Under the pieces are notes generated by a model, which did not search any database, was not told the origin of the DNA, and saw only the letters and a program-made list of their open reading frames with translations. Below, piece after piece: positions 7,698-62,088 of a DNA stretch of 64,000 nt. The DNA comes from Eledone cirrhosa (lineage: Eukaryota): assembly GCA_964016885.1 (NCBI GenBank), contig OZ024746.1, positions 6,262,001 through 6,326,000 on the forward strand, written 5' to 3'. The number at the start of each line of letters is the position of its first letter. Position 1 is the first letter of the stretch. Position numbers and translations under genes: made by a program.

Positions 7698-9808
7698 TCA
7701 GGTTATCAATAATGTAGTGATAATATATCGTTACGTTAGAGATGAACAGCGTACGTGCAGGTTTGCTCAACGAGTATAAATTATATTCCGGAGAAATGTA
7801 GAAAGGATGAATATAAAATGAAAGTGCTTTTGTTAAAAAAGGAATTTATTAGGTATTGACATATGTTTCTGTAACAGACCGAATACCTATGTATCGCTGC
7901 TTGCGTAATCATATAATGTTAGCAAGTATTCGATAGCAAATGTATAATCAGTTGTCACTTCTTCAGAGATTTTGGATAAACTGGATAAAATCAGAAAAAT
8001 TGAAGTATTTATATTAGTAAAAGAGGAAGGAACAGAGGGGATAGAATATGACAGATGGTAAAATAATTTACTGCTAAACAAGTATATAATGGGTTTTTAA
8101 TGAGAATACCATGAGTAAATCTAAATAAGAAATTTTGGGAGTGCCAATTTTAATCTCTACTTGACCAACTGGACAGTGGACAGGGCTGGTCATTTGGTGC
8201 AGTAGTATTAACTATAAAGTGTCAATTGGGGAAGGGGGAGATTTCGATTGCTACTAAATAACATCAATGCTAGTATCCAGCTGGTATATGCACTAGGGAA
8301 TTGAATCAAGAAATCAGAAATCTCATTTTATCTATAGCAGTTTGTATTAAAAGGTAAATAATAGAAGAGTTGATAGAATTAAGACTAATAAAGAATGTTA
8401 ATATCTATTTTGACAATCAAACGGGGATAGAGACAGGCGTTCAATCCTGGTAGTATTTATAATATGAAAATGTAGATTTTAAGCGATGGTTACAGTATAA
8501 CGATCGCTCTATTCTGTTATTTAATAAAATGTTTTTGGATTTCATAATACAAAATAATTCTACATTACATAATTTACAAATTTCCTGTCCATTGGATTAT
8601 GGGGGGGCAGTCGCTATTATATCCCATTTTAGGTGAAATTGTTGGTTATTTTCACGCAGCTGCCAAGCCTTGTCTGCGAGTGTTGTTACATAACGCTGGT
8701 TTTCATGTTTTATCGAATAACGATGTCTATAAAGGCGTGATTTGAAGGAGGTGGCTGTAGATCCCACATAGTACCACTTCTGTCTATCCGATTCGATAGT
8801 ACATTTGTATACGATGTTGCGTTCAAGACACTGATTGTTCAACGGACACATTCCTGGTTGGACACAGTTGCAATTACAATTTTGCGTTGTTGTATTAGCA
8901 TGGATGGGTTGATGAGGTTGCTTATGTAGGACAGGATGTTGTTTGTTGTTTTGTGATGTTATAGCTAATGTTTTACGTGTATTGTTATGTGTTGGAAGGC
9001 GTTTATACAACCGTTTTGCGTTAAGCTTTTTTATATGTTGTTCAATATTAGGGGCGGTTCAATATGAAAGTCGAATAGTGTTAGGGTTTAAGATTTTATT
9101 ATATTTATGTGATGTTGGAAAGTGTTTTCTAACTAATCGAAAGAATTTTGAGGGTAGATTGGTTTTAATAGATTTGTTATAGACCGGGTTGTACCAGATA
9201 TACTCCTTACATCGCCTTCTGTTTGGTGGTGTGCGACTATTATTGTGTCTATTGCGGTAGTGTATGTATGGTGGTGATTCTGTGCTATTTCTACTCCTAT
9301 GCGATTTATTTTGGGTGTTTTGGTGATCATTGACTATATACTCTATACTATCTAGGTGACCGGCTTTCCTAAGTGCATCATCATAATACTCGGCATGTTC
9401 TTTGAAGGTTTGTTGGTTGGACGATAGGCGGGAGATTCTAAGAGAAACATATCTAGGGATGGATTTAATTATAGAGAGTGGATGGTTAGAACTCGTATTT
9501 ACATATTTAAGGTTCTCATTTAAAAAATAAGACTTTAGCAGTAAATTATTTTACCATCTGTCATATTCTATCCCCTCTGTTCCTTCCTCTTTTACTAATA
9601 TAAATACTTCAATTTTTCTGATTTTATCCAGTTTATCCAAAATCTCTGAAGAAGTGACAACTGATTATACATTTGCTATCGAATACTTGCTAACATTATA
9701 TGATTACGCAAGCAGCGATACATAGGTATTCGGTCTGTTACAGAAACATATGTCAATACCTAATAAATTCCTTTTTTAACAAAAGCACTTTCATTTTATA
9801 TTCATCCT

Positions 9809-14963: not shown

Positions 14964-15008
<45 letters not shown>

Positions 15009-15111
15009 GAATTCCCTTTTCTATCAACCAATGACCTGCACCCATCCCACTCCCCACCCTCTCCTACCACTTGTAGAGACCTATAAATACCATATTTATT
15101 TTTTGATACCC

Positions 15112-15162
15112 AGATTCCTGATGATTTCTAATGAATGAAACAGTTCTAGTCCTGTAGAATCT
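15112..15162 (+). ncRNA. Compact canonical type I hammerhead ribozyme
   Basis: agattc-CTGATGA-tttc/taat/gaat-GAAA-cag/ttctagtc/ctg-TA-gaatct; the same motif is at 40018-40066(-), 40071-40121(+) and 57332-57384(-). Confidence 0.85.
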
Positions 15163-15174
15163 CTTCTATATTAA

Positions 15175-15231
<57 letters not shown>

Positions 15232-32620: not shown

Positions 32621-33969
32621 TATATTCCTTAGACTAAGAAAGGAAGTAGATCGTTGAATAGGGGCTCAACAAAGTGATTTCTAGTTGACACTACATGATG
32701 TTCCCCTAAACCCAAAGCTATGTGACATATTTCTTTAATATTCAGTAAAAACCTAACAATAAAACTATATCAAATCTCTTGTTGGATCATTGTCAAGAGA
32801 GAGGCTGAAAGATTTCATAAAGTCAATACGAAATATTTGTAAACACTATTCCATACGTTGTATGTAATTCTATTAATTTCGTGTTTTGAAACCCGAATCT
32901 GCGTTAATTTCAATGAATATTTTTGTCAATGTAACAACAGTATTTTTAATTTTCTTCTCGTTACCAAGTTCAAATATATTTTAGTGTCAACAATGTAGTC
33001 AAATAGGAAGTGAAGCTAAGAAGGCAGTCCAATGATACAAACTCTTGACTTAGAGAGGAAGTAAATAAAATGTGTCTTGTGCAAGCTGGGGATTGTCAAT
33101 ATTGGTATAGAGGAAGTTATTGAAAATTGCTTAAGTAGCATTGAACACACGAGCTGTATACTATTTGTACCTTTACTCAATATAATGAATATTTGTATAG
33201 ATAGTTTAACATTAGTTTCACTGCTCTTTTATATGGATATAGTCGTAGCCACCATACTTCATCTCAATACAAATCTTCGGATCGTTCTTACACATGACTA
33301 TTTGTTAACGATTGTTTATTCTGCTATTTTCTAAGGCAAAGATAGAACAAATGATGTATTCTTGGTTCTGTGAAAAGGATTAGCTACAAGCTAAAAGGAA
33401 ATAACACCCAATGGCAATCTATAACACATCATATATTTGCTGGGCTTTTAACTCAATAGCATCCACACATGAAGAGACACCAGTGTTACGTTCTGTGGTA
33501 CACAGGTTCACATACGTCTGTCAGTAACCAGTTCATCACACCAGCCTTGTTTGTTATGGTAAAGGTATAGGTTCAATCCGAGTATATGAACATTATAAAA
33601 GAGTGAATGACATACATATATACCTGCACATATCTAATGATATAAACGTATAAACATATATATCAAACTTTAACAAGAGACAATCTTTATGTAAGAATAC
33701 ATAGTTCGTTTCAGTATCATATAATAAATTTAACAAAATTTAAGATATAGATACCTGATAAAAATCATATTATCTCCCTTATATGTATACTTCACACATC
33801 ATGAATACATTTCACCAAATATCGGTGAAGTTAGATAATTGAATCTGGATCGTCTGTGAAAGAAATCAATCCAGATCTAGTTCTGTAGAAGCCATTTCTA
33901 TATTAAATATTGACACTGTGCTATGTATTGAGTAACTTACTTACTGTGGTTACCCCCGATTGACCCGTG

Positions 33970-34036
<67 letters not shown>

Positions 34037-39063: not shown

Positions 39064-39930
39064 AAAATAAAATAACAGGAGGCTGGACTGGTGTAAATCC
39101 TTGAAAGGTTTATTATACTATCATCATTTCAATGACCGGGTTCCATATGAATCCGGTGATATCATCAGGTATTGGAATATAACAAAGGAATATGTAAAAA
39201 AAAACCATGGGTCCGAAAAATCAGAGACAGAGACAAAGAGGACGACTGACCAACTAGCCTCTCGGCCAGTCGCCCTCAAAGTGTTGGCAACTGAATCTAC
39301 TAATGAATAGCTAGTGAGGGGCCGAAGGCTTATAATGCACTACCACCACTCCGTCAAAGAAAAAGGGGAAGAAAGAAAGGAAGAGAGAAGTCAGTGTAAG
39401 GGTCATACTACATTCATGCTACAGTCATACTACATTCAATGCCTCGAAAAAATGCTACTCCAAAGAATCTATAATGGGTGTCTGTATGGTCTAATGTGTG
39501 AACCGAAAATTGGAACGTTAAACTTATGTTGCGAGTTATAGGATGAAATTAAATTAAATTAACAATATTAAATTGCAAAATGTTAAATTGAAAAATAAGT
39601 TATTAGAGAATTAAAGATTAAGGTAGCGAGATTTATTTATTTAATGAACTTAAGGAGAGAGTCTTGTATGAAAAAATGTATCTCGATAAGATATTAGGAT
39701 GGGATATAGAGTAAAGATTTAGATTGGGAGTCCCAGCCAGCAGACCCCCCACCATAAGTCAGCCAGTCTCGAGTGGTATCGTCCAGCGAAAGAAATGGAA
39801 GATGAGTGAACTGCACTGCGTTGAGTACTCTTCAAAATATTACACCAGGATTGACCATACGGAATGACCAGTTCTATCCAGTGGTGAACCAACAAACCTA
39901 AAGAAATATATATATATATATATATATATA

Positions 39931-40137
39931 GTACGTTATTCCGGGTTGAATCGGAGGTAACCACAGTAAGTAAGGTACTCAATACATAGCAGAGTATAAA
40001 AGTTTTAATATAGATGAGATTCTACAGGACTAGAACTGTTTCATTCATTAGAAATCATCAGGAATCCCTGAGATTCCTGATGATTTCTAATGAATGAAAC
40101 AGTTCTAGTCCTGTAGAATCTCATCTATATTAAAACT

Positions 40138-40138
<1 letters not shown>
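39931..40138. mobile_element. Minimal fold-back: two opposed hammerheads plus one tail in (TA)n
   Basis: Arms 40000-40066 and 40072-40138 each contain the 15112-type HHR; tail at 39931-39999. Confidence 0.9.
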
Positions 40139-40169
<31 letters not shown>

Positions 40170-43250: not shown

Positions 43251-46200
43251 TCAGGATTTGGGCACCATGGCCCATTCGAGAAGAGAATTACTGTTTGCGG
43301 AGACATATCCGGGTGTGGGTGGTTTGTCCGGGATTACTTGGAGGAATTTGTCCAAAGACTTCTTGAATTTTGTGTGGTCAGTTTCTGTTTTGACGTGTCC
43401 TGGTGTGATGTTGAAGAGAGCAGGGCCGATTGAGGTGAAATAATTGTGCCGTATTGTTGTTATGAGTTGGGATTTAGATTTTTGAATGGGACGGATAGCA
43501 CGGGGCCCAAGCCTTGGGTGTATCTTGAAGGCGATGCCAACATCATTTGGGCAGTGATGATGGAACATTTTCCACATCATGCAGATAATATAACGCTCAC
43601 GGCGACGTTGGAGTGAGTAAAGTTTCAGGTTTTCGAATCGACCCCAGTAGTCAAGGTCTGACATGCCATCTATCTTTTTCGTGATTGCCCTTTGAGGAGC
43701 TTCAAGTTTCATGATACTTTGTTTCGTGTGGGGAGACCACAGTGGACAACAGTATTCAAGGTGTGGTCGGGCAAAGGTAGAGAAGAGAAGGATAATGGTG
43801 CGGGAATCTCTCGACTGGAAGGTTCTGAGGATCCAGGAACACATTCTGCGGGCCATGTCAACTTTGCTGCTTATATGCGTGGTCCAGCTTATGTTGCTGT
43901 CCACGGTTACTCCCAAGTCTCTGATGTTGTTAGATGCCACGAGAGTTTCCCCGGAGGGAAGGGAGTACGGGAGTTTCAGAGCATCCTCTTTTCCAAAGTG
44001 GATCAGTTCGAATTTGTCTTCGTTCAGTAACATGTTGTTCTTTTCTGCCCATTGGGTAACAGCCAGTAGGTCTGACTGAAGGCTTATCCGGTCATCCACG
44101 CCATTGATGACCTTTTGGAGCTTGGAATCATCAGCGAAAATTTTAATGTTGCTGTGTTTGATGATGTCAGTGATGTCATTAATATAGATGATGAAGAGAA
44201 GTGGCCCAACACAGTGCCTTGTGGGACCCCACTACTGACTTTGGCTGGGCTTGATTTGACTCCCTCAACTACAACATGTTGGGTTCTGTTTGACAGGAAG
44301 CTCTTGATCCACTGCAGCAGCTTTCCAGTGACACCAATATTGGACAGCTTTCTCAGTAGAATGTTATGATCAACCCTGTCAAAGGCCTTGCTGAAATCAA
44401 GGTAGATAACATCAGTGTTGGAACCCTCTCCCAAGGCTCTCAAAATGTCATCAAAGTGATGCAGTAGCTGCGTCAGGCAATCCCTTCCATTACGGAATCC
44501 ATGCTGGTTGGAGTTCAGCATATTGTTACTCTCAAGGAAGTGGGTCATTCGCGATCTCACCACTCTCTCAAATACCTTAATGATATGAGAGGTGAGTGAG
44601 ATTGGACGGTAATTCACGGCAAGGGATTTGTTTCCCTTTTTGAAAACTGGGACAACAGACTGGGATAGAAGGTTTTCTGGCACATATCCAGCATCCAGTG
44701 AGTTCCGCCACAGATTGGCAAGAGGAGATGCAAGTTGGTGTTGACACGCCTTCAAGACACAAGCAGGGAACCTATCGGGACCTACTGCTGAATTATGCTT
44801 GATTTCCTTTATTGCCGCCAAGACATCAGGGGCGCCAAACGTTATGTCCGATAAGGTGTAATGGGGAGTAACATCGCCGATACAGCCCAGATCGGCCATA
44901 TCAGGATTGCTGAAAACAGAGCAGTATTGTTTCTGCAGTATCTCACCCATGGTTTTAGCATTGTCTTGAAGAGTGCCATTTTCATCAATTAGAGGGCCAA
45001 CAGTAGAGCCAGTGATTTTGTGTTTTTTGCAAATGAAAAGAACACTTTGGGATTGAGTTTGATCTTCTCAATGGCCCAGGCCTCTTCAGCTCTTCTCTGA
45101 TTGTTGATGAGGGACATTATGTTGTTTTGGAGGTTATGTTTTTTAATCTCTAGTGATGAAATGGCAGTCAAGTTGATGTGTTGCTGCTGACAGTATTTCA
45201 GCTTGTTGATTTTTTTGTTCGTTCTCTTAATTTTTCTGATGAGCGTTTTTCTATTTCTAGGGATTCTGCCCTTAGATTTGTTTATAGTTCTTAATGGGGT
45301 GTGTTTAGCACATATGTTTGTAACAGTGTCCACAAATGTCTGCCAGGACTTTTTGATGTTAGTGGGTGTATGAGTGTGCGTGAAGGACCAGTCGACATGT
45401 GCAAGATCATGACTGATCGCTTCCCAGTTTGCATTGTGGAAATCCATAGCGTCAAACGGATGGACAGGAGAGATGACATTGGGTTTGTATATTGGACGGT
45501 GGAATCTCAGATCACAGAGAACCATGTCATGATCAGAGAGTAGAGTTTTCTCCACTGCAATATTGTGGATATTGTCAGTGTGATTGCTGAAAATTAAGTC
45601 TAGGACGTTTTTGTGGCACCTCGTTGGTTCGAGCACCAGTTGGGATAGGAAGAAATCATCCATGAAGTCAAGAAGCGATTCCACAGCTTCCCTGTCAGAG
45701 GTTGAGGCAGAAGAACCTGGTGGCAGGCTGTTTGTGGACCAGTCAACTCCGGGGAGGTTGAAGTCCCCCATCATTAAGATGTTGTCAGGGTGACACTCTT
45801 GGATGAAACACTTTATGCTGTTGAGGCATTCCTTGAAGCATGGTACAGGCGTTTGGGGTGGCCTATAGAGCCCAACTACTAATAGGTTGCTGGTTTGACT
45901 GAATACAGTGACTGCTTCACAGTATCCATTAGTGAATATGTTCATAGCCTCTGTTGAGAAAGAATTATGGACATAAATGGCAGTTCCGCCCTTTCTTCTG
46001 CCAGCGCGATCAGCACGGATGGCTTTGAAATTTTTCACTTTCACCTCGGCTTCCAACTGGAGGTTACTGAGATGGGTTTCAGTGAGGACGAAGAAAGGGA
46101 TGTGGTTTGGATGGACATCAATCCAGTCCTCCAGGAATTTGATCTTCCATTTTTGAGTATTGGTGGAAGGGCTGATGCCTTGGGCGTTAAGCAAAAATGT

Positions 46201-46269
46201 AGAGGCGAGAGTGGATGGTTTTAATTGTTTTGGTGTGTTGTTAATTTGTTTGTTTGTTAATGGCAGCAA
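43251..46269 (-). pseudogene. LINE ORF2 (APE endonuclease + reverse transcriptase) with two 1-bp frameshifts
   Basis: LNAQG, LTETHL, GLYRPP, MGDFNLP, LDLIFSN, SDH (APE); NYRPISLTS, QHGFR, YLDFSKAFDRV, SGVPQGTVLG, IFADD (RT); breaks near 45025 and 44205. Confidence 0.92.
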
Positions 46270-47016
46270 TGGGAGTTTGTGCAGTGGGGTGATAGTGGAG
46301 GGTGGTGCTGGGTGATAGCTCGAATGTTTTTTTCCAGTTCTTTTGCCAGATTCATTATGGCTAAAAAAGAGGAAGAAGTTTCCTGTTTAGAAGACTGTTG
46401 GTGACTGTGGTAGTGGTTATTTTTATGTAGGTTATGGTTTTTGTTTTTGCTTTTATTTTTAATTTTATTTTCATTTGTCCGACGGGTCCCCGGGAGATGG
46501 GTAAAGGGACAATCCCGGTCTAAACACAATCTGTCTCGCAGGGAAAAGCGGCAGATTTGTGGATTCCTTGTTTGAGTTATTGGTGGTTGTGTTGGTGTTA
46601 AATTAGAGTATGTATTATGGTGGTGGCTGTTTGTGGGGATAGATCGTTTTGTCCTAGGTAAATGGGTGAATTTGCAGCCACTATCCGCACATATTCTATA
46701 GCGTAGAGAGTAGCGGCAAATGATGGGGTTTCGAGTGGGTGGGTATGTGGGTGTGTGTGTTGTGAGAGGTGTAGATGATGGTTTGGGTAGGATTTGACGA
46801 CCTTTGTGGACTGTGGGAGGGAGAGTTCTTGTTCTGGTATTAGAAGGTAAATTCCTTGACATAGCAGTAGAGAAAAATGTTGTAGTAGTAGTAGTAGGCA
46901 GAGATATTGGCAGTGTTGATGATTGGACTGCTGGGCCAGAGAAAGGATGTGGCGTTTCATGCTGTGAGACAGAGGCTACTGGGGGGGTCAATAGTTTCAT
47001 TTAGTAGATCGGCCAT
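46257..47016 (-). CDS. LINE ORF1-like protein, S/T/P-rich, with two CCCH-type zinc-finger repeats
   Basis: [19 protein letters not shown] and [19 protein letters not shown] in ORF 46257-47000, directly upstream of ORF2; start uncertain. Confidence 0.65.
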
Positions 47017-48996: not shown

Positions 48997-54235
<5,239 letters not shown>

Positions 54236-54238
54236 TGT

Positions 54239-55578
54239 ATGGAGGATACAAAGGAGTATAATAGTTTCAAGCAGCGTCTTTACATGCATACCCATTCTTT
54301 TCGTTACCCTCTAAGAAGGAATATGACGTCACTTTCAGCTTATATCTGGAGTCTAAAAGACAACCACACCCAATATAAGTTACACTGGGAGATCCTAGCT
54401 AGGGCTAGATCGTATAACGGAAATAAAAGACCATGTGACCTCTGCGCCGCTGAGGCCCTGGAAATACTCTACGCCACAGACCACATCTTAAACAAAAAAT
54501 CTGAGGCAATTTCGGCTTGTAAACATAAATTGCACAAAACTTTCCTGTATTACAGCCCCACGTTATACCCTAACGGATAGCACGATCTATACGTGGATAT
54601 GTTACGTCTTGATGTGGGAGCTAAGTATATGTTTTGTTTATTCCTTTACTTATTTGCATAGGTAAGTATATATTACCCGTATGTTTTGTGAAGGTAAGTA
54701 TACCTTCTCGTACGTATATTTGACTGTTATGGCGTATAATTTTGACATATTCTGGTATTTAGGGTTTGGCTATGTGTATACGGGAGTTTTGCGTCTGCGT
54801 GAGTATGCAGGTTCGTACGTATGGTGGGTGTGTGTATATGTGTACTTCTTGTTTTAGTTGACTTACGTCTCCGAACATTCGTGTATTTATATGTAGGTAT
54901 GTGTGTGCGCTTGTTATATAGGTATTTATTTACTTATATACGTTTATATAATTATTTATTTATGTGTACACAAGCATACACACACACACATATTTATATG
55001 TGCGTGGTTTTGTATACCTTGATAAAGTTTTGCGTATGCTTGTGTATGTACGTATCTGTTTGCGTGTATGTATTTATTTGTTTCTATTACTTCTGTATTG
55101 TATTTATTTACTTTGTTCTTAACTCTGTAGCGGAGATTCATTTGGTCTCCTAGTTAGAATTTTAGTCTACGACTTCTGCTATACCATTTACGTGGTTTTG
55201 TCTTTGCGTGCTATTGTTCTCCACGCTCCACATATGACTTATTATCTTCGTTTTTTCGTTCATTGCCAGAGAACGTCTCTATGCACCACCTAAGAGAACA
55301 TTAGTCTACGACCTCCTTTATACCATAAACGTGGTTCTGTCTTTGCGCGTAATTGTTTTTCACCGCTCCTATTAATGACGTATTATTCGTTTTTTCCCGT
55401 TCTTTGCCAGCGAACGTTTCCACGAACCAAAGTATCGTCTTCCTGTCTTCCTCCGGTTGCAACGTTTTTTGAAATATCCAGTTCTGCGTTTACAGATTGA
55501 CTTTGTTAGTTTCAGAAGATCCCGTTAAGGGTGAAAGTAGCGATTCTTTGCTTAAACTTTAATCTGTTATTTTAATAA
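54239..55578 (+). mobile_element. Nematis-type PLE 3' fragment (EN C-terminus + 3' UTR)
   Basis: FKQRLYMHTHSFR..TSLSAYIWSLK..WEIL..CDLCAAEALEIL..LNKKSEAISACKH; A4-variant HHR motif at 55508-55558. Confidence 0.88.
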
Positions 55579-57278: not shown

Positions 57279-57328
<50 letters not shown>

Positions 57329-57330
<2 letters not shown>

Positions 57331-57450
57331 TGAGATTCTACAGGACTAGAACTGTTTCATTCATTAGAAATCATCAGGAATCTCTTTTATACTCTGCTAT
57401 GTATTGAGTACCTTACTTACTGTGGTTACCTCCGATCAACCCGGAATAAC

Positions 57451-57453
<3 letters not shown>
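57329..57453. mobile_element. Inverted HHR + direct tail mini-insertion in (TA)n
   Basis: 57332-57384 is the HHR on the minus strand, joined to the tail (57385-57453, +) of the 39931 family. Confidence 0.85.
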
Positions 57454-58319: not shown

Positions 58320-59055
58320 AAAGTTAAGGGGCGAAGCACTCTAAAGAGCTTCTCCTGTCCAACCCTTTAGAGTTTTGTACCATTATGAAGGAGTGTTAAA
58401 ATGTCCACAGCATCCAATAAAATAAATACCCTATAATAAACACAAAATGGATGATATAGAAAAACTAATAGGAATATTGTTAATTTGGTTTAGAATATTA
58501 AAAGACGATTAATGTGAAGAGGTTGAATGTAGAGTGGCTCCCACCCTACCCCTAACTGTAGAGTGAGGGGTCTCATAAACGAACCAAAATGGTACTAGAA
58601 CCATATACGATTGAAAGACTTCATTTTCCCTATTCATTAACTTCGACCTATATGTAGTGATTTCCATAGCTTCGGTTAAATAAACATTAGTTGCATTGGT
58701 TTAGCTGAGTTAATAATATACCACATTAGTGAGCGTCCAATATTGGATTTATTTAGATTCCAAATGAAATGTGCAACGGAAGTCGAACTTTTTCAGTTTT
58801 CCATATGAAAGGAATGTAAATGAAAATTATATCGCAATTTAAATGGGTTATACATAGCTTCAATATAATATATAGTGTTATTAGGTGTAGTTACTGTGAT
58901 TTATATACGGTGTTAAGTCTAAGACAATTACCTTTTAATGGGCACTTACTTGATACTCTACAATTACATTCAGAATTAGCATTATTGGTGTTATGAACTA
59001 TATTAGAATTTTTATCATGGTTAGAAATAGATTCAGCCTTATCAGTAATAATATA
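58320..59055 (-). mobile_element. Decayed Nematis-type PLE 3' fragment
   Basis: ECNCRVSSKCPLKGNCLRLNTVYK. Confidence 0.7.
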
Positions 59056-60860
59056 GCTCGACTGTGGGATGACAGCTTTTGATTTCAGAGTCGGGCCAGA
59101 TCGATACAGATCGAACCGTGAGCTGATCGATAGCGAAACGCGCGTCACCAATCAATAAACGTAATGAAGGTTAAACAAATCATCCTTGTATTATATTCCT
59201 AAGTGATCCCTATTTCATTTGTAAAAAAAAAACATCTTCAGAATAATTACAGGGTTTCTACGTTTTTTGCTCATCACTATGAAAGTATAATAATAGATTG
59301 GAACTTGAGTATACTTCTACTTCAGCAAACATATATTGTCTCTCGTCATTGTTCTCTTCAAGAATGTGTCACGATTTTCAATACTTCGTTTTCAAACAAT
59401 GATGTTGTCATTAGCGCACACCTGATATTATTTTGTCAGCTTCGTAAACTCTGATATTCTCATAATGCTACCACTTGCCTCTTTTCCTCTATACTTTCTT
59501 TTTATGTATGTTGCTTTGCTGCTGTTTTCATTCTAATGATTCTTCTTTACCTATAATTTATATATAGGAAGATAAAGGTTACTAGTAGGTATAATGTTGA
59601 TATCAGGTAATAATGTATTATCGGTTAAAAGAAAATTGTCTTTTGTATTCTGCGATACGGATATGAGTACATTAATAAAACGAAGTATTATTGCAATATT
59701 CGCTAAATATTACAATATTCAGAAAGACGAATCGCAATAATGGCGGAATATCTTCCATTTAGAAACAAATAAAATGAAAGTATTTATCATAATTTCTATG
59801 AAACGAATATAAACCTATAAAACATTCTAGAATGTTTATTCTCGATCCTTACGCACTCAGTGTGCAACATAAACAAATATAGAATATAATGAAAGCTTTA
59901 CTTTGGGAAAATAAATATGAAATCAAATTCTTTGATTTTTATCATTCTTCCCTCCAACATTTTACTTCTAAAATTGTCATGAGTGATTTTAGTTCAAACT
60001 ATTACAACAAATGAACGTCAATGTGTGACACAGGCACACAAGATAATATAAATGATGTGGCAGCATAAAGTACATCTTAACACGATAATTCTATTAACAG
60101 AGAATGAAATTATATTTATCAATTGTGTATTCCTGCTGATTGTATGATACACGACGAATGACATTTTTACGTTTCACCATACGTAATTAAAAATGGAAAA
60201 CTTTTAATAAAGCTTTCATAGTTTTTTATTCTAATTATGTTTTTATCACGAAATGTCTACTGCATTAGAGAATCTTTGAGGGAACGTGCTGAATTCCTTA
60301 TTTATTTTCATCCCTTAACAGTTTATTTCTCTTTTTCTATATTGCCTTTGGCCATTGAAGGGGTGTGACATAATTCTCTACTTCTAGTTTCTATTAAGGT
60401 TTAGTTATTGTTAATACATTTACTGTTGCTTCCTTCTTTTCTCATTTTTATAACAAATGATAAAAAATTGAAGATTTTATTTCAACTTCTCAGAGTTTGA
60501 AATATATATAGACTTATGAATTTAGTTCCTATTTTAGGCTTTTTTTGCCGTACTTTCCAGTTTACGTAACTTCTTTTAGATTTCAATTAAAGATTTCGTG
60601 TTAATTCAGTTTCAATTTCAGTTCCACTTATGATATTTCTACCCGAATCTATTTCGTCTCAAGCACACTTATAGAAACTTGAAATAGTTTCTATTTATAT
60701 TATCAACACATATGCGACTCCCATTACGTATATTTTATTCAATCTTTATGAATGTAAGATCTTTAAACTTTAATATTTTTGTCTTGTTTCCCTTCTCTTT
60801 TGATGTGTTGATGTACTCACTTGGCTTCCTTCCGTCTGTTCTGCGTTTTGATTCTATTTT

Positions 60861-60940
<80 letters not shown>

Positions 60941-61006
60941 GCATACATATATACATACACATATATATACACATATATCTATCTCCCTCTCTCTCTCTAT
61001 ACATAT

Positions 61007-61049
<43 letters not shown>

Positions 61050-61051
61050 TA

Positions 61052-62088
61052 TAACTGTAACTATCGACTTCCCTTCCAAACACCCTAACAATAGACTACC
61101 TGTATTAGACACAGAACTCTGGATTAACACTATAGACGAGAGAGCCCAAATTCTCCACTCACACTATGCTAAACCCATGGCCTCCAAATACCTGATACTC
61201 AAAAACTCAGCAATGTCCAGTAGTGCTAAGTTTAATATTCTGATCGCAGATTTGGTACGAGTGATGAAGAATGTGTCCAGCATGTGCGACCCAACAGAAA
61301 TGGAAAGACACATCCAACACTTCATCAACCGCATGCAGTTCTCTGGCTACAACCAAAGAGACAGAGTCAGAGTATACGAAGGAGCCATGGAAAATTATAA
61401 GACCCTCATAGAACTGGACATGAAAGGAATTTGCCCATTATACAGGAGCAAATCATGGAATAGCTTAGATAGGGCTAGACATAAGATAGGGAAGGCCACA
61501 TCATGGTACGACAACCAGAGATATCAGAGTGTCATGTTTGTGGACGCCACCCCTGAAGGGAAATTAGCTAACCAGTGTAGAAAGGCCCTGAGAAAGACCC
61601 ACTTAAAAATAAAGGTGGTAGAAAAGCCAGGAACCACCATAAAATCCCTGATCAGCAAAACCTACCCGTTTAAGAAAACCCACTGTACCAATAGGAAATG
61701 TATCATATGTAAGGTGAACCCCCGGATAAACTGTAAAACTAGAAACGTAGTCTATAACATAAGATGTACAGAGGGTACTTGCAGAAACATGACAACAACA
61801 TACATAGGCGAAACAGCTCGTAGCATAGGTGAAAGGATAGACCAACACTGGGGGGAACTAAAAGGACGAAAAAACGGGTCAGTACTATACGAACATGCTA
61901 GACAACAACATGACGGTAACATAGACAACATAGAAATTAGAATAATATCTAAACATAGGAATGACCCAGCAGATAGGCAAATCAGAGAGGCCAGTGAAAT
62001 AGAAATTAGAAGACCAAAGCTAAACAGAAAGAATGAGTGGAACAACAACAACACCCAAACAAACAACACTGACCTAAGAGAAGTATAA
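61052..62088 (+). CDS. PLE RT thumb + GIY-YIG endonuclease (partial, ~345 aa)
   Basis: [18 protein letters not shown]...[44 protein letters not shown]. Confidence 0.9.

What the first reader, a model, noticed from the sequence alone, without database searches (positions are those of the whole stretch)
39931..40138. Minimal ribozyme-only insertions: same HHR family in three architectures
Seen: the same ~50-nt HHR appears as a solo tail-less copy (15112-15178), a back-to-back pair with one tail (39931-40138), and an inverted HHR fused to a direct tail (57329-57453). In all four copies the 5' boundary falls within a few nt of the start of stem I (gattc). A diverged relative lies at ~33840-33970. 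Inference: either a ~135-nt non-autonomous unit (HHR + tail) or an RT stall/fold-back point at the ribozyme.
Basis: partly seen in the sequence, partly recalled or inferred. Interest (0 to 1): 0.72.

Follow-up and report, generated by a model that had tools for sequence, protein, structure and literature searches.

The report
Penelope transcript-start stubs, joined head-to-head
These tiny ribozyme-bearing insertions are the front ends of a very abundant Penelope-type jumping gene, likely copied from both sides of one DNA cut until the enzyme ran off the start of the element's RNA, so they are probably dead-end by-products that record how such elements insert rather than a separate mini-element.

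Summary
The copies are real, but they are not a ribozyme-only family. The hammerhead motif and tail are the first ~135 nt of a 6-kb Hydra-clade Penelope-like element (713-aa RT plus GIY-YIG ORF). The genome holds 10,993 exact core matches, 4,934 of them with the native upstream flank. The 'solo' copy at 15112 carries 104 nt of that flank, so only three of the four copies start at stem I. The 5' pile-up is real: 48 of 100 arms end at -3..+6 and only 7 at -119..-4. It lies 30 nt below a TATA box and often carries an extra G (1,637 G against 202 T and 161 A). In 56 of 61 short and 18 of 18 long inverted pairs the arms end at two different fixed 3' sites, and they share subfamily marks. A second Penelope family in this genome has its ends about 45-70 nt upstream of its ribozyme helix, which argues against a ribozyme stall. 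Best reading (0.8): both target strands prime on the 5' leader and run off the capped RNA start. No RNA start or cleavage was observed. The scan reached the same model earlier on other genomes.

The parts
39931..40068 (-). Tail-bearing arm: first ~137 nt of the element RNA (starts GGGATTC; hammerhead motif 40016-40068; tail 39931-40000), 3' end at the distal site S2
   Evidence: 100% to parent L063 positions 1-136
40069..40069 (.). Single extra base at the head-to-head joint; this joint recurs in three subfamily backgrounds and in both orientations
40070..40137 (+). Tail-less arm: extra G + AGATTC, hammerhead motif 40070-40122 (predicted cut after 40115), 3' end at the proximal site S1
39906..39930 (.). 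(TA)n target, left flank
40138..40165 (.). (TA)n target, right flank
15009..15178 (+). 5'-truncated pLTR copy with 104 nt of native upstream sequence, ending at S1 in (TA)n; not a ribozyme-only copy
   Evidence: 99.4% over 174 nt to parent 3' region
15028..15032 (+). CCAAT box-like motif, -84 from the predicted start
   Evidence: motif name from general knowledge
15082..15089 (+). TATAAATA, -30 from the predicted transcription start (A at 15112, in CCAGATT)
   Evidence: function inferred
57324..57384 (-). Tail-less arm from S1 to the RNA start, with extra G
57384..57453 (+). Tail arm from S2, stopped close to where the other arm began (twin-priming-like, no duplicated part)
33872..33967 (+). 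Fragment of an older sister family: 3' half of the hammerhead plus tail, no intact core

Best explanation
The short insertions are the first 60-137 bases of a Hydra-clade Penelope-like retrotransposon, likely made when its enzyme cuts a (TA)n repeat, primes one DNA copy from each cut strand at two fixed sites in the RNA leader, runs off the predicted capped start of the RNA, and the two copies are joined head to head. Shown: the coding parent, the shared sequence, the two 3' end sites and their one-of-each pairing, the 5' cliff, the extra G and the TATA spacing. Inferred: that the cliff is the transcription start, that the G is the copied cap, that both arms come from one RNA or one source locus, and that host end-joining seals the middle. 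Priming in the downstream pLTR of a read-through RNA would give the long arms; priming in the 5' leader gives the stubs. The three architectures differ only in how far each arm got and how much was trimmed at the joint. The ribozyme marks the boundary because it sits at +1; the templates were mostly uncut.
For: Parent: L063 runs hammerhead, tail, 713-aa ORF 180 nt downstream, microsatellite-rich 3' region, next hammerhead 5,966 bp on. 5' ends of 100 arms anchored inside the motif (0 = G of GATTCC): 29 extend 120 nt or more upstream, 5 end at -119..-21, 2 at -20..-4, 26 at -3..0, 22 at +1..+6, 10 at +7..+15, 6 at +16..+30. 100 tail-anchored arms from an overlapping stretch of the same contig: 25, 1, 6, 16, 22, 9, 7, and 14 further downstream. 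Promoter-like motifs at -84, -60 and -30; TATA-to-start spacing stays 29-33 nt in diverged relatives (122 of 126 matches in the fetched loci, which include repeats of the same places). Base before A(-1): G 1,637, T 202, A 161; native is C. 3' ends of 236 arms: 118 at S1, 109 at S2, 3 into the ORF, 6 other; S1+S2 pairing in 56 of 61 short and 18 of 18 long inverted pairs; arms agree at subfamily marks in 46 of 47 and 60 of 60 pairs (about 56% expected by chance for the first mark, my arithmetic). Control family (coding parent shown): of 30 copies, 16 long, 1 at -86, 9 at -57..-82, 4 at -24..-48, none within 20 nt of the core. Arms starting exactly at the predicted cut site: 37, 26 of them starting AGG like the stem-I overlap joint, against 17 and 6 at nearby positions. 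In vitro, an anole Poseidon element cuts and extends both strands, starts RT at two sites bounding the tail, and uses uncut RNA (PMC11167929, parts 1-2 of 4 read).
Against: No RNA 5' end was seen, so start and cap are inferred. Of 30 extra-G arms read by eye, 14 have a G that cannot come from the partner or flank, 15 are ambiguous through microhomology and 1 is a mutated native flank. The extra G also extends stem I, and a few joints (L074, L075, L078, L101) fit a 3-nt or longer fold-back. Arms ending at G(0) show no clear extra-G bias (7 G, 11 T, 3 C of 21). In the control family the window's own pair (34260/34280) ends about -15 and -2, near its ribozyme; three of its 30 copies were re-read by eye as long, three others lack a close reference, and its start site is itself inferred. 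Samples are the first matches on contig C1, not a random draw, and the two 100-arm samples overlap. Cut-site starts beside (TA)n are invisible to the pattern used. Target-site duplications cannot be read in (TA)n.
Confidence: 0.8

Rival explanations
1. The stubs are a self-standing non-autonomous ~135-nt unit (hammerhead plus tail), or a palindromic master copy that spreads as such.
For: About 40% of arms are stubs. A few joints recur exactly at many loci. Thousands of ORF-less copies keep the promoter (4,934 matches with native flank; a 1.07-kb tandem array) and could supply short RNAs.
Against: Stubs lack the upstream promoter motifs. The recurring joint of this finding occurs in three subfamily backgrounds and both orientations. 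One mark has the same proportion in short and long arms (67% and 68%); two others differ modestly (18/131 against 5/77; 19/66 against 6/42). Long arms obey the same S1/S2 rule.
Confidence: 0.07
2. RT stalls at the ribozyme, or the new DNA folds back on stem I and primes itself, which fixes the boundary and the inversion.
For: The boundary coincides with stem I. The extra G, and sometimes T and A before it, match a stem-I fold-back. 43 clean stem-I joints exist.
Against: A stall would leave ends on the 3' side of the helix (+45..+52), where few fall. The fold is weak (-8 to -11 kcal/mol). 43 joints against 3,116 matches. A simple fold-back does not explain why the second arm ends at a different fixed site against the other (TA)n flank. 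The control family's ends do not follow its ribozyme.
Confidence: 0.08
3. Head-to-head repeats arise by self-priming on an antisense template, as proposed for rotifer Penelope elements (PMC3846280, passages read).
For: Short palindromes at joints occur, for example at 15006-15020.
Against: It does not predict a cap-like G on both arms at the centre, or one-of-each S1/S2 ends. The two-site RT start was shown in vitro on an RNA spanning the pLTR-ORF junction (PMC11167929).
Confidence: 0.05

Closest known systems
Hydra clade of C-terminal-endonuclease Penelope-like elements (Craig et al. 2021, PMC8557442; section 11 and passages read)
   Same: Single ORF with RT then GIY-YIG; DKT motif; CxCX5C linker; CxxC and CxH in the endonuclease; hammerhead in the pLTR; (TA)n targets; inverted 5' copies; tail on one end.
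   Different: Unit is ~6 kb through a ~3-kb microsatellite stretch in the 3' region (described members <3 kb); RWR in place of RWK; tail ~70 nt, not 30-40; very many transcript-start stubs, which the passages read do not describe.
Poseidon element PAc of the green anole in vitro (Frangieh et al. 2024, PMC11167929; parts 1-2 of 4 read)
   Same: Two RT start sites bounding the tail; both strands cut and extended; uncut RNA is the template; AT-rich targets.
   Different: There the start sites lie inside the ORF; here both lie upstream of the first ATG. The parts read do not treat head-to-head joining, run-off at the RNA start or an extra G.
PLE hammerheads (Cervera and de la Pena 2014, PMC4209133; parts 1-2 of 4 read)
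   Same: Type I core in pLTRs; most motifs single and ascribed to truncated elements; opposite-strand pairs noted 100-700 bp apart.
   Different: Here helix III is 4 bp with an 8-nt loop and helix II only 3 bp, and the pairs abut. That paper proposes cleavage and circles; the copies here show mostly uncut templates.
Non-LTR retrozymes (Li et al. 2026, bioRxiv 10.64898/2026.07.22.740005; part 1 of 5 and passages read)
   Same: Non-coding, pLTR-derived, type I hammerhead.
   Different: Retrozymes are head-to-tail tandems; these stubs are dispersed and head to head.
L1 twin priming and cap-derived G (twin priming recalled; extra G from passages of PMC4038843, which cites Gilbert 2005 and Volloch 1995)
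   Same: Two primers on one RNA give an inversion; an extra G marks a copied cap.
   Different: L1 priming is at poly(A) and at variable internal sites; here both sites are fixed and the arms usually overlap.

Membership tests
Hydra-clade PLE (parent) | Single ORF, RT followed by C-terminal GIY-YIG | tested here: met
   713 aa; YRDDG at 347, YIG at 602; Pfam GIY-YIG only E 0.012, below cut-off
Hydra-clade PLE (parent) | DKT motif and CxCX5C linker | tested here: met
   DKT at 116; C566-x-C568-x5-C574
Hydra-clade PLE (parent) | RWK motif; CxxC and CxH in the endonuclease | tested here: met
   RWR variant; CDLC at 666, CMH at 694
Hydra-clade PLE (parent) | Placement in an RT phylogeny with reference Hydra elements | not tested
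   no reference sequences fetched
Hydra-clade PLE (parent) | pLTR with hammerhead, one-sided tail, inverted 5' copy, (TA)n targets | tested here: met
Type I hammerhead ribozyme | CUGANGA / GAAA / UH core with three helices | tested here: met
   stem I has 2 pairs with double-sided change, all 156 cells paired; stems II and III were pre-selected by my pattern and do not covary
Type I hammerhead ribozyme | Self-cleavage | not testable with these tools
   only 37 arms start exactly at the predicted cut, a confounded count
Non-LTR retrozyme | Two or more head-to-tail units with intact hammerheads | tested here: not met
   window copies are single or head to head; one 1.07-kb tandem array of the family lies elsewhere
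SINE-like non-autonomous unit | Own promoter inside the unit and own lineage | tested here: not met
   promoter-like motifs lie upstream of the stub boundary; no separate lineage by three marks; an internal promoter was not assayed

The most novel reading that the evidence does not exclude
Penelope-like elements insert by a two-ended mechanism: each strand of one cut primes at its own fixed RNA site, and the thousands of stubs are a fossil cap map giving transcription start and both RT start sites for every family straight from the genome. In the boldest form, the thousands of ORF-less promoter-hammerhead-tail copies also make short capped RNAs that the enzyme copies in trans, a self-feeding stub cycle with no ribozyme cleavage.
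Probability: 0.25. Interest if true: 0.7.

Novelty: new member of a known kind. Interest (0 to 1): 0.42.

Why it matters
The family type, its ribozyme, inverted copies and one-sided tail are known. How Penelope-like elements form tandem and inverted structures is still called undefined in PMC8557442 (passages read). These stubs give a large natural sample of insertion products that matches the 2024 in vitro result and extends it: one-of-each use of two start sites, a sense uncut template, and a joint at the RNA start. The second family separates transcript start from ribozyme inside one genome, which makes the model directly testable. I did not find the run-off model in print (searches; subscription papers and supplements not seen). 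The scan's own notes already hold it for several other genomes, so this locus adds a control, not a first sighting.

Tried and rejected
Rfam scan: no hammerhead family among the rows shown, only hairpin and microsatellite matches. The repeat finder was swamped by microsatellites. First genome search included the joint and so was biased toward pairs (39 of 40); not used for frequencies except the joint table. First 5'-end alignment misplaced some ends and was redone anchored; the apparent peak at -142 is an alignment break at an A-rich indel. RNA: no RNA holder listed. One of the four runs (X1) has a contig that skips a GT..AG intron of a ferritin-like gene and so looks like RNA; the other three do not. 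X1 contigs cover the hammerhead, the tail and the tail-to-ORF junction, but contigs cannot show starts, strand or level, and X1 also holds intron contigs; not used as evidence. No small or circular RNA data were available. PDB search of the ORF: nothing below E 0.07. A first guess of Neptune clade (notebook) was dropped after the motif check. A recalled DOI for the Penelope promoter paper fetched an unrelated article; that paper is cited only through PMC8557442. Look-up of earlier notes by sequence found nothing.

Full report
Observation. The core reads stem I, CUGAUGA, a 3-bp stem II, GAAA, a 4-bp stem III, UA, stem I. The MFE fold gives these helices but is no more stable than shuffles, and no hammerhead family appears among the 150 Rfam rows shown. 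Among 12 related copies that I picked for diversity, stem I keeps all pairs with two double-sided changes. One claim fails: the copy at 15112 continues 104 nt upstream into family sequence, so it is a 5'-truncated pLTR. The relative at 33872-33967 is a fragment of an older sister family whose intact members have a covaried stem I.

Family and parent. The window lies in a 3.0-Gb animal assembly; I did not identify the host. A 31-nt core matches 10,993 times, a mid-motif pattern 16,840 times and a tail pattern 7,437 times. Locus L063 holds a full unit: hammerhead, tail, a 713-aa ORF starting 180 nt on, a 3' region that is mostly TA/TG microsatellite, then the next hammerhead 5,966 bp later. The protein has RT motifs, a C-terminal GIY-YIG, DKT, a CxCX5C linker, CxxC and CxH, the marks given for the Hydra clade in PMC8557442 (section 11). 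No tree was built. 4,934 core matches keep the native upstream bases; their strand skew (3,448 against 1,486) suggests tandem arrays, one of which was seen.

5' ends. With 0 at the G of GATTCC, the first 100 mid-motif matches on contig C1 end as follows: 29 at least 120 nt upstream, 5 at -119..-21, 2 at -20..-4, 26 at -3..0, 22 at +1..+6, 10 at +7..+15, 6 at +16..+30. The 100 tail-anchored arms, which overlap that sample, give the same shape. The profile is a cliff on the upstream side with a slope downstream, as expected for a hard template end plus trimming. Upstream of A(-1) lie CCAAT (-84), CCCCACCC (-60) and TATAAATA (-30), and the start reads CCAGATT; the names and canonical spacings are from general knowledge. 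The TATA spacing stays 29-33 nt in relatives whose intervening bases differ. Before A(-1), where the parent has C, there are 1,637 G, 202 T and 161 A. By eye 14 of 30 such G cannot come from the partner or flank, 15 are ambiguous and 1 is a mutated native flank. A copied cap is the simplest source (PMC4038843 passages, citing earlier L1 and AMV work). A stem-I fold-back gives the same letter and fits a few joints. Arms ending at G(0) show no extra-G bias (7 of 21).

3' ends and pairing. Of 236 arms in the fetched C1 loci, 118 end at S1 (52-74 nt, mostly 59 and 66), 109 at S2 (128-142, mostly 135), 3 run into the ORF and 6 end elsewhere. In 56 of 61 short head-to-head pairs and 18 of 18 long inverted pairs (0.2-8 kb) one arm ends at S1 and the other at S2. 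The arms agree at two subfamily marks in 46 of 47 and 60 of 60 pairs, so they come from one RNA or one source. The exact joint of this finding occurs in three subfamily backgrounds and in both orientations (from the junction-biased loci), so it forms repeatedly. Head-to-head joints with at most 25 nt between give 3,116 matches, some loci counted twice; the clean stem-I fold-back joint gives 43. Arms starting exactly at the predicted cut number 37, against 17 and 6 nearby, so cleavage leaves little trace, though starts beside (TA)n escape this count.

Control. A second hammerhead family in the window (16210, 34260/34280, 62362) leads into a degraded RT ORF that is 82-94% identical to the window's GIY-YIG-bearing frame at 60688-62088. 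Its upstream region shows no TATA box by eye but has an AAGATGGCG motif at -47 (YY1-like, name recalled). Of 30 copies, 16 are long (3 re-read by eye), 1 ends at -86, 9 at -57..-82, 4 at -24..-48 and none within 20 nt of the core; its stem I starts near -13 by eye. A further sample requiring 31 upstream bases adds three ends near -60. The window's own pair is an exception, ending near -15 and -2. The older sister of the main family again ends at stem I, 30 nt below a TATA box in the one parent-type copy seen among the 30 (L306). The ends therefore follow promoter-like positions better than the ribozyme.

Mechanism. Shown: parent, shared leader, two 3' sites, one-of-each pairing, cliff, extra G. 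Inferred: the endonuclease cuts both strands of (TA)n; each 3' end primes at its own site; priming in the 5' leader reaches the cap after about 60 or 135 nt; the two DNA ends are joined with small deletions, overlaps or added bases. 39931-40138 has both arms complete. In 57324-57453 the S2 arm stops near where the S1 arm began. 15009-15178 is a lone S1 arm from a downstream pLTR, truncated 104 nt above the start. This agrees with PMC11167929 (both strands extended, two start sites, uncut RNA) and with a pLTR-borne start site in Penelope (PMC8557442 passage) and a TATA/Inr-like pair in a rotifer pLTR (PMC3846280 passage). It disagrees with the antisense self-priming idea in the latter paper.

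Standing. This is a new family of a known kind, and the stubs are likely by-products. My reading was written down before I consulted earlier notes. Those notes hold the same cap run-off model for other genomes and two-armed ends for other families of this genome; they are unchecked and not independent support. Paper searches did not turn up the model in print; supplements and subscription papers were not seen and could bear on this. Interest 0.42.

Noticed in passing
window 16210(-), 34260(-)/34280(+), 62362(+); ORF remnant 60688-62088(+): Second hammerhead-bearing Penelope-like family (1,867 exact matches) with a TATA-less upstream region, a ~290-nt leader and an asparagine-rich insert in the ORF; used here as control.
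   Followed up: partly
window 48997-52950(-): Another Hydra-like ORF (39% to the parent) with a hammerhead at 52946 and ~1.8 kb of TA microsatellite between leader and the readable frame.
   Followed up: no
window 16742(-)/17034(+): Head-to-head pair of a third repeat with a CUGAUGA...GAAA motif, cores ~290 bp apart.
   Followed up: no
window 2360(-) and 48044(-); 17970(-) and 57691(-): Two further repeat families with hammerhead-like cores; the first has a TATAAAAA upstream.
   Followed up: no
L154 (G000:C1:83677000-83686900): Tandem array with a ~1.07-kb unit: promoter region, hammerhead (changed at the cut site in the unit printed), tail, microsatellite. At least 12 listed matches at this spacing; a possible retrozyme-like source of short RNAs.
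   Followed up: partly
L063 3' region; L061, L066: The element carries ~3 kb of TA/TG microsatellite in its own 3' region, copied into inverted arms of 2.8-4.4 kb; it may seed its own target repeats.
   Followed up: no
window 15006-15020: Short palindrome at the 5' joint of the truncated copy.
   Followed up: no
window 43251-47000(-): LINE-type element with endonuclease and RT frames, broken into several ORFs.
   Followed up: no
window 8456-9550(-), 54191-54580(+), 58700-59037(-): Further GIY-YIG/RT fragments of Penelope-like elements.
   Followed up: no
L074, L075; L236, L238: Identical unusual joints at separate loci, either recurrent repair outcomes or local duplications.
   Followed up: no
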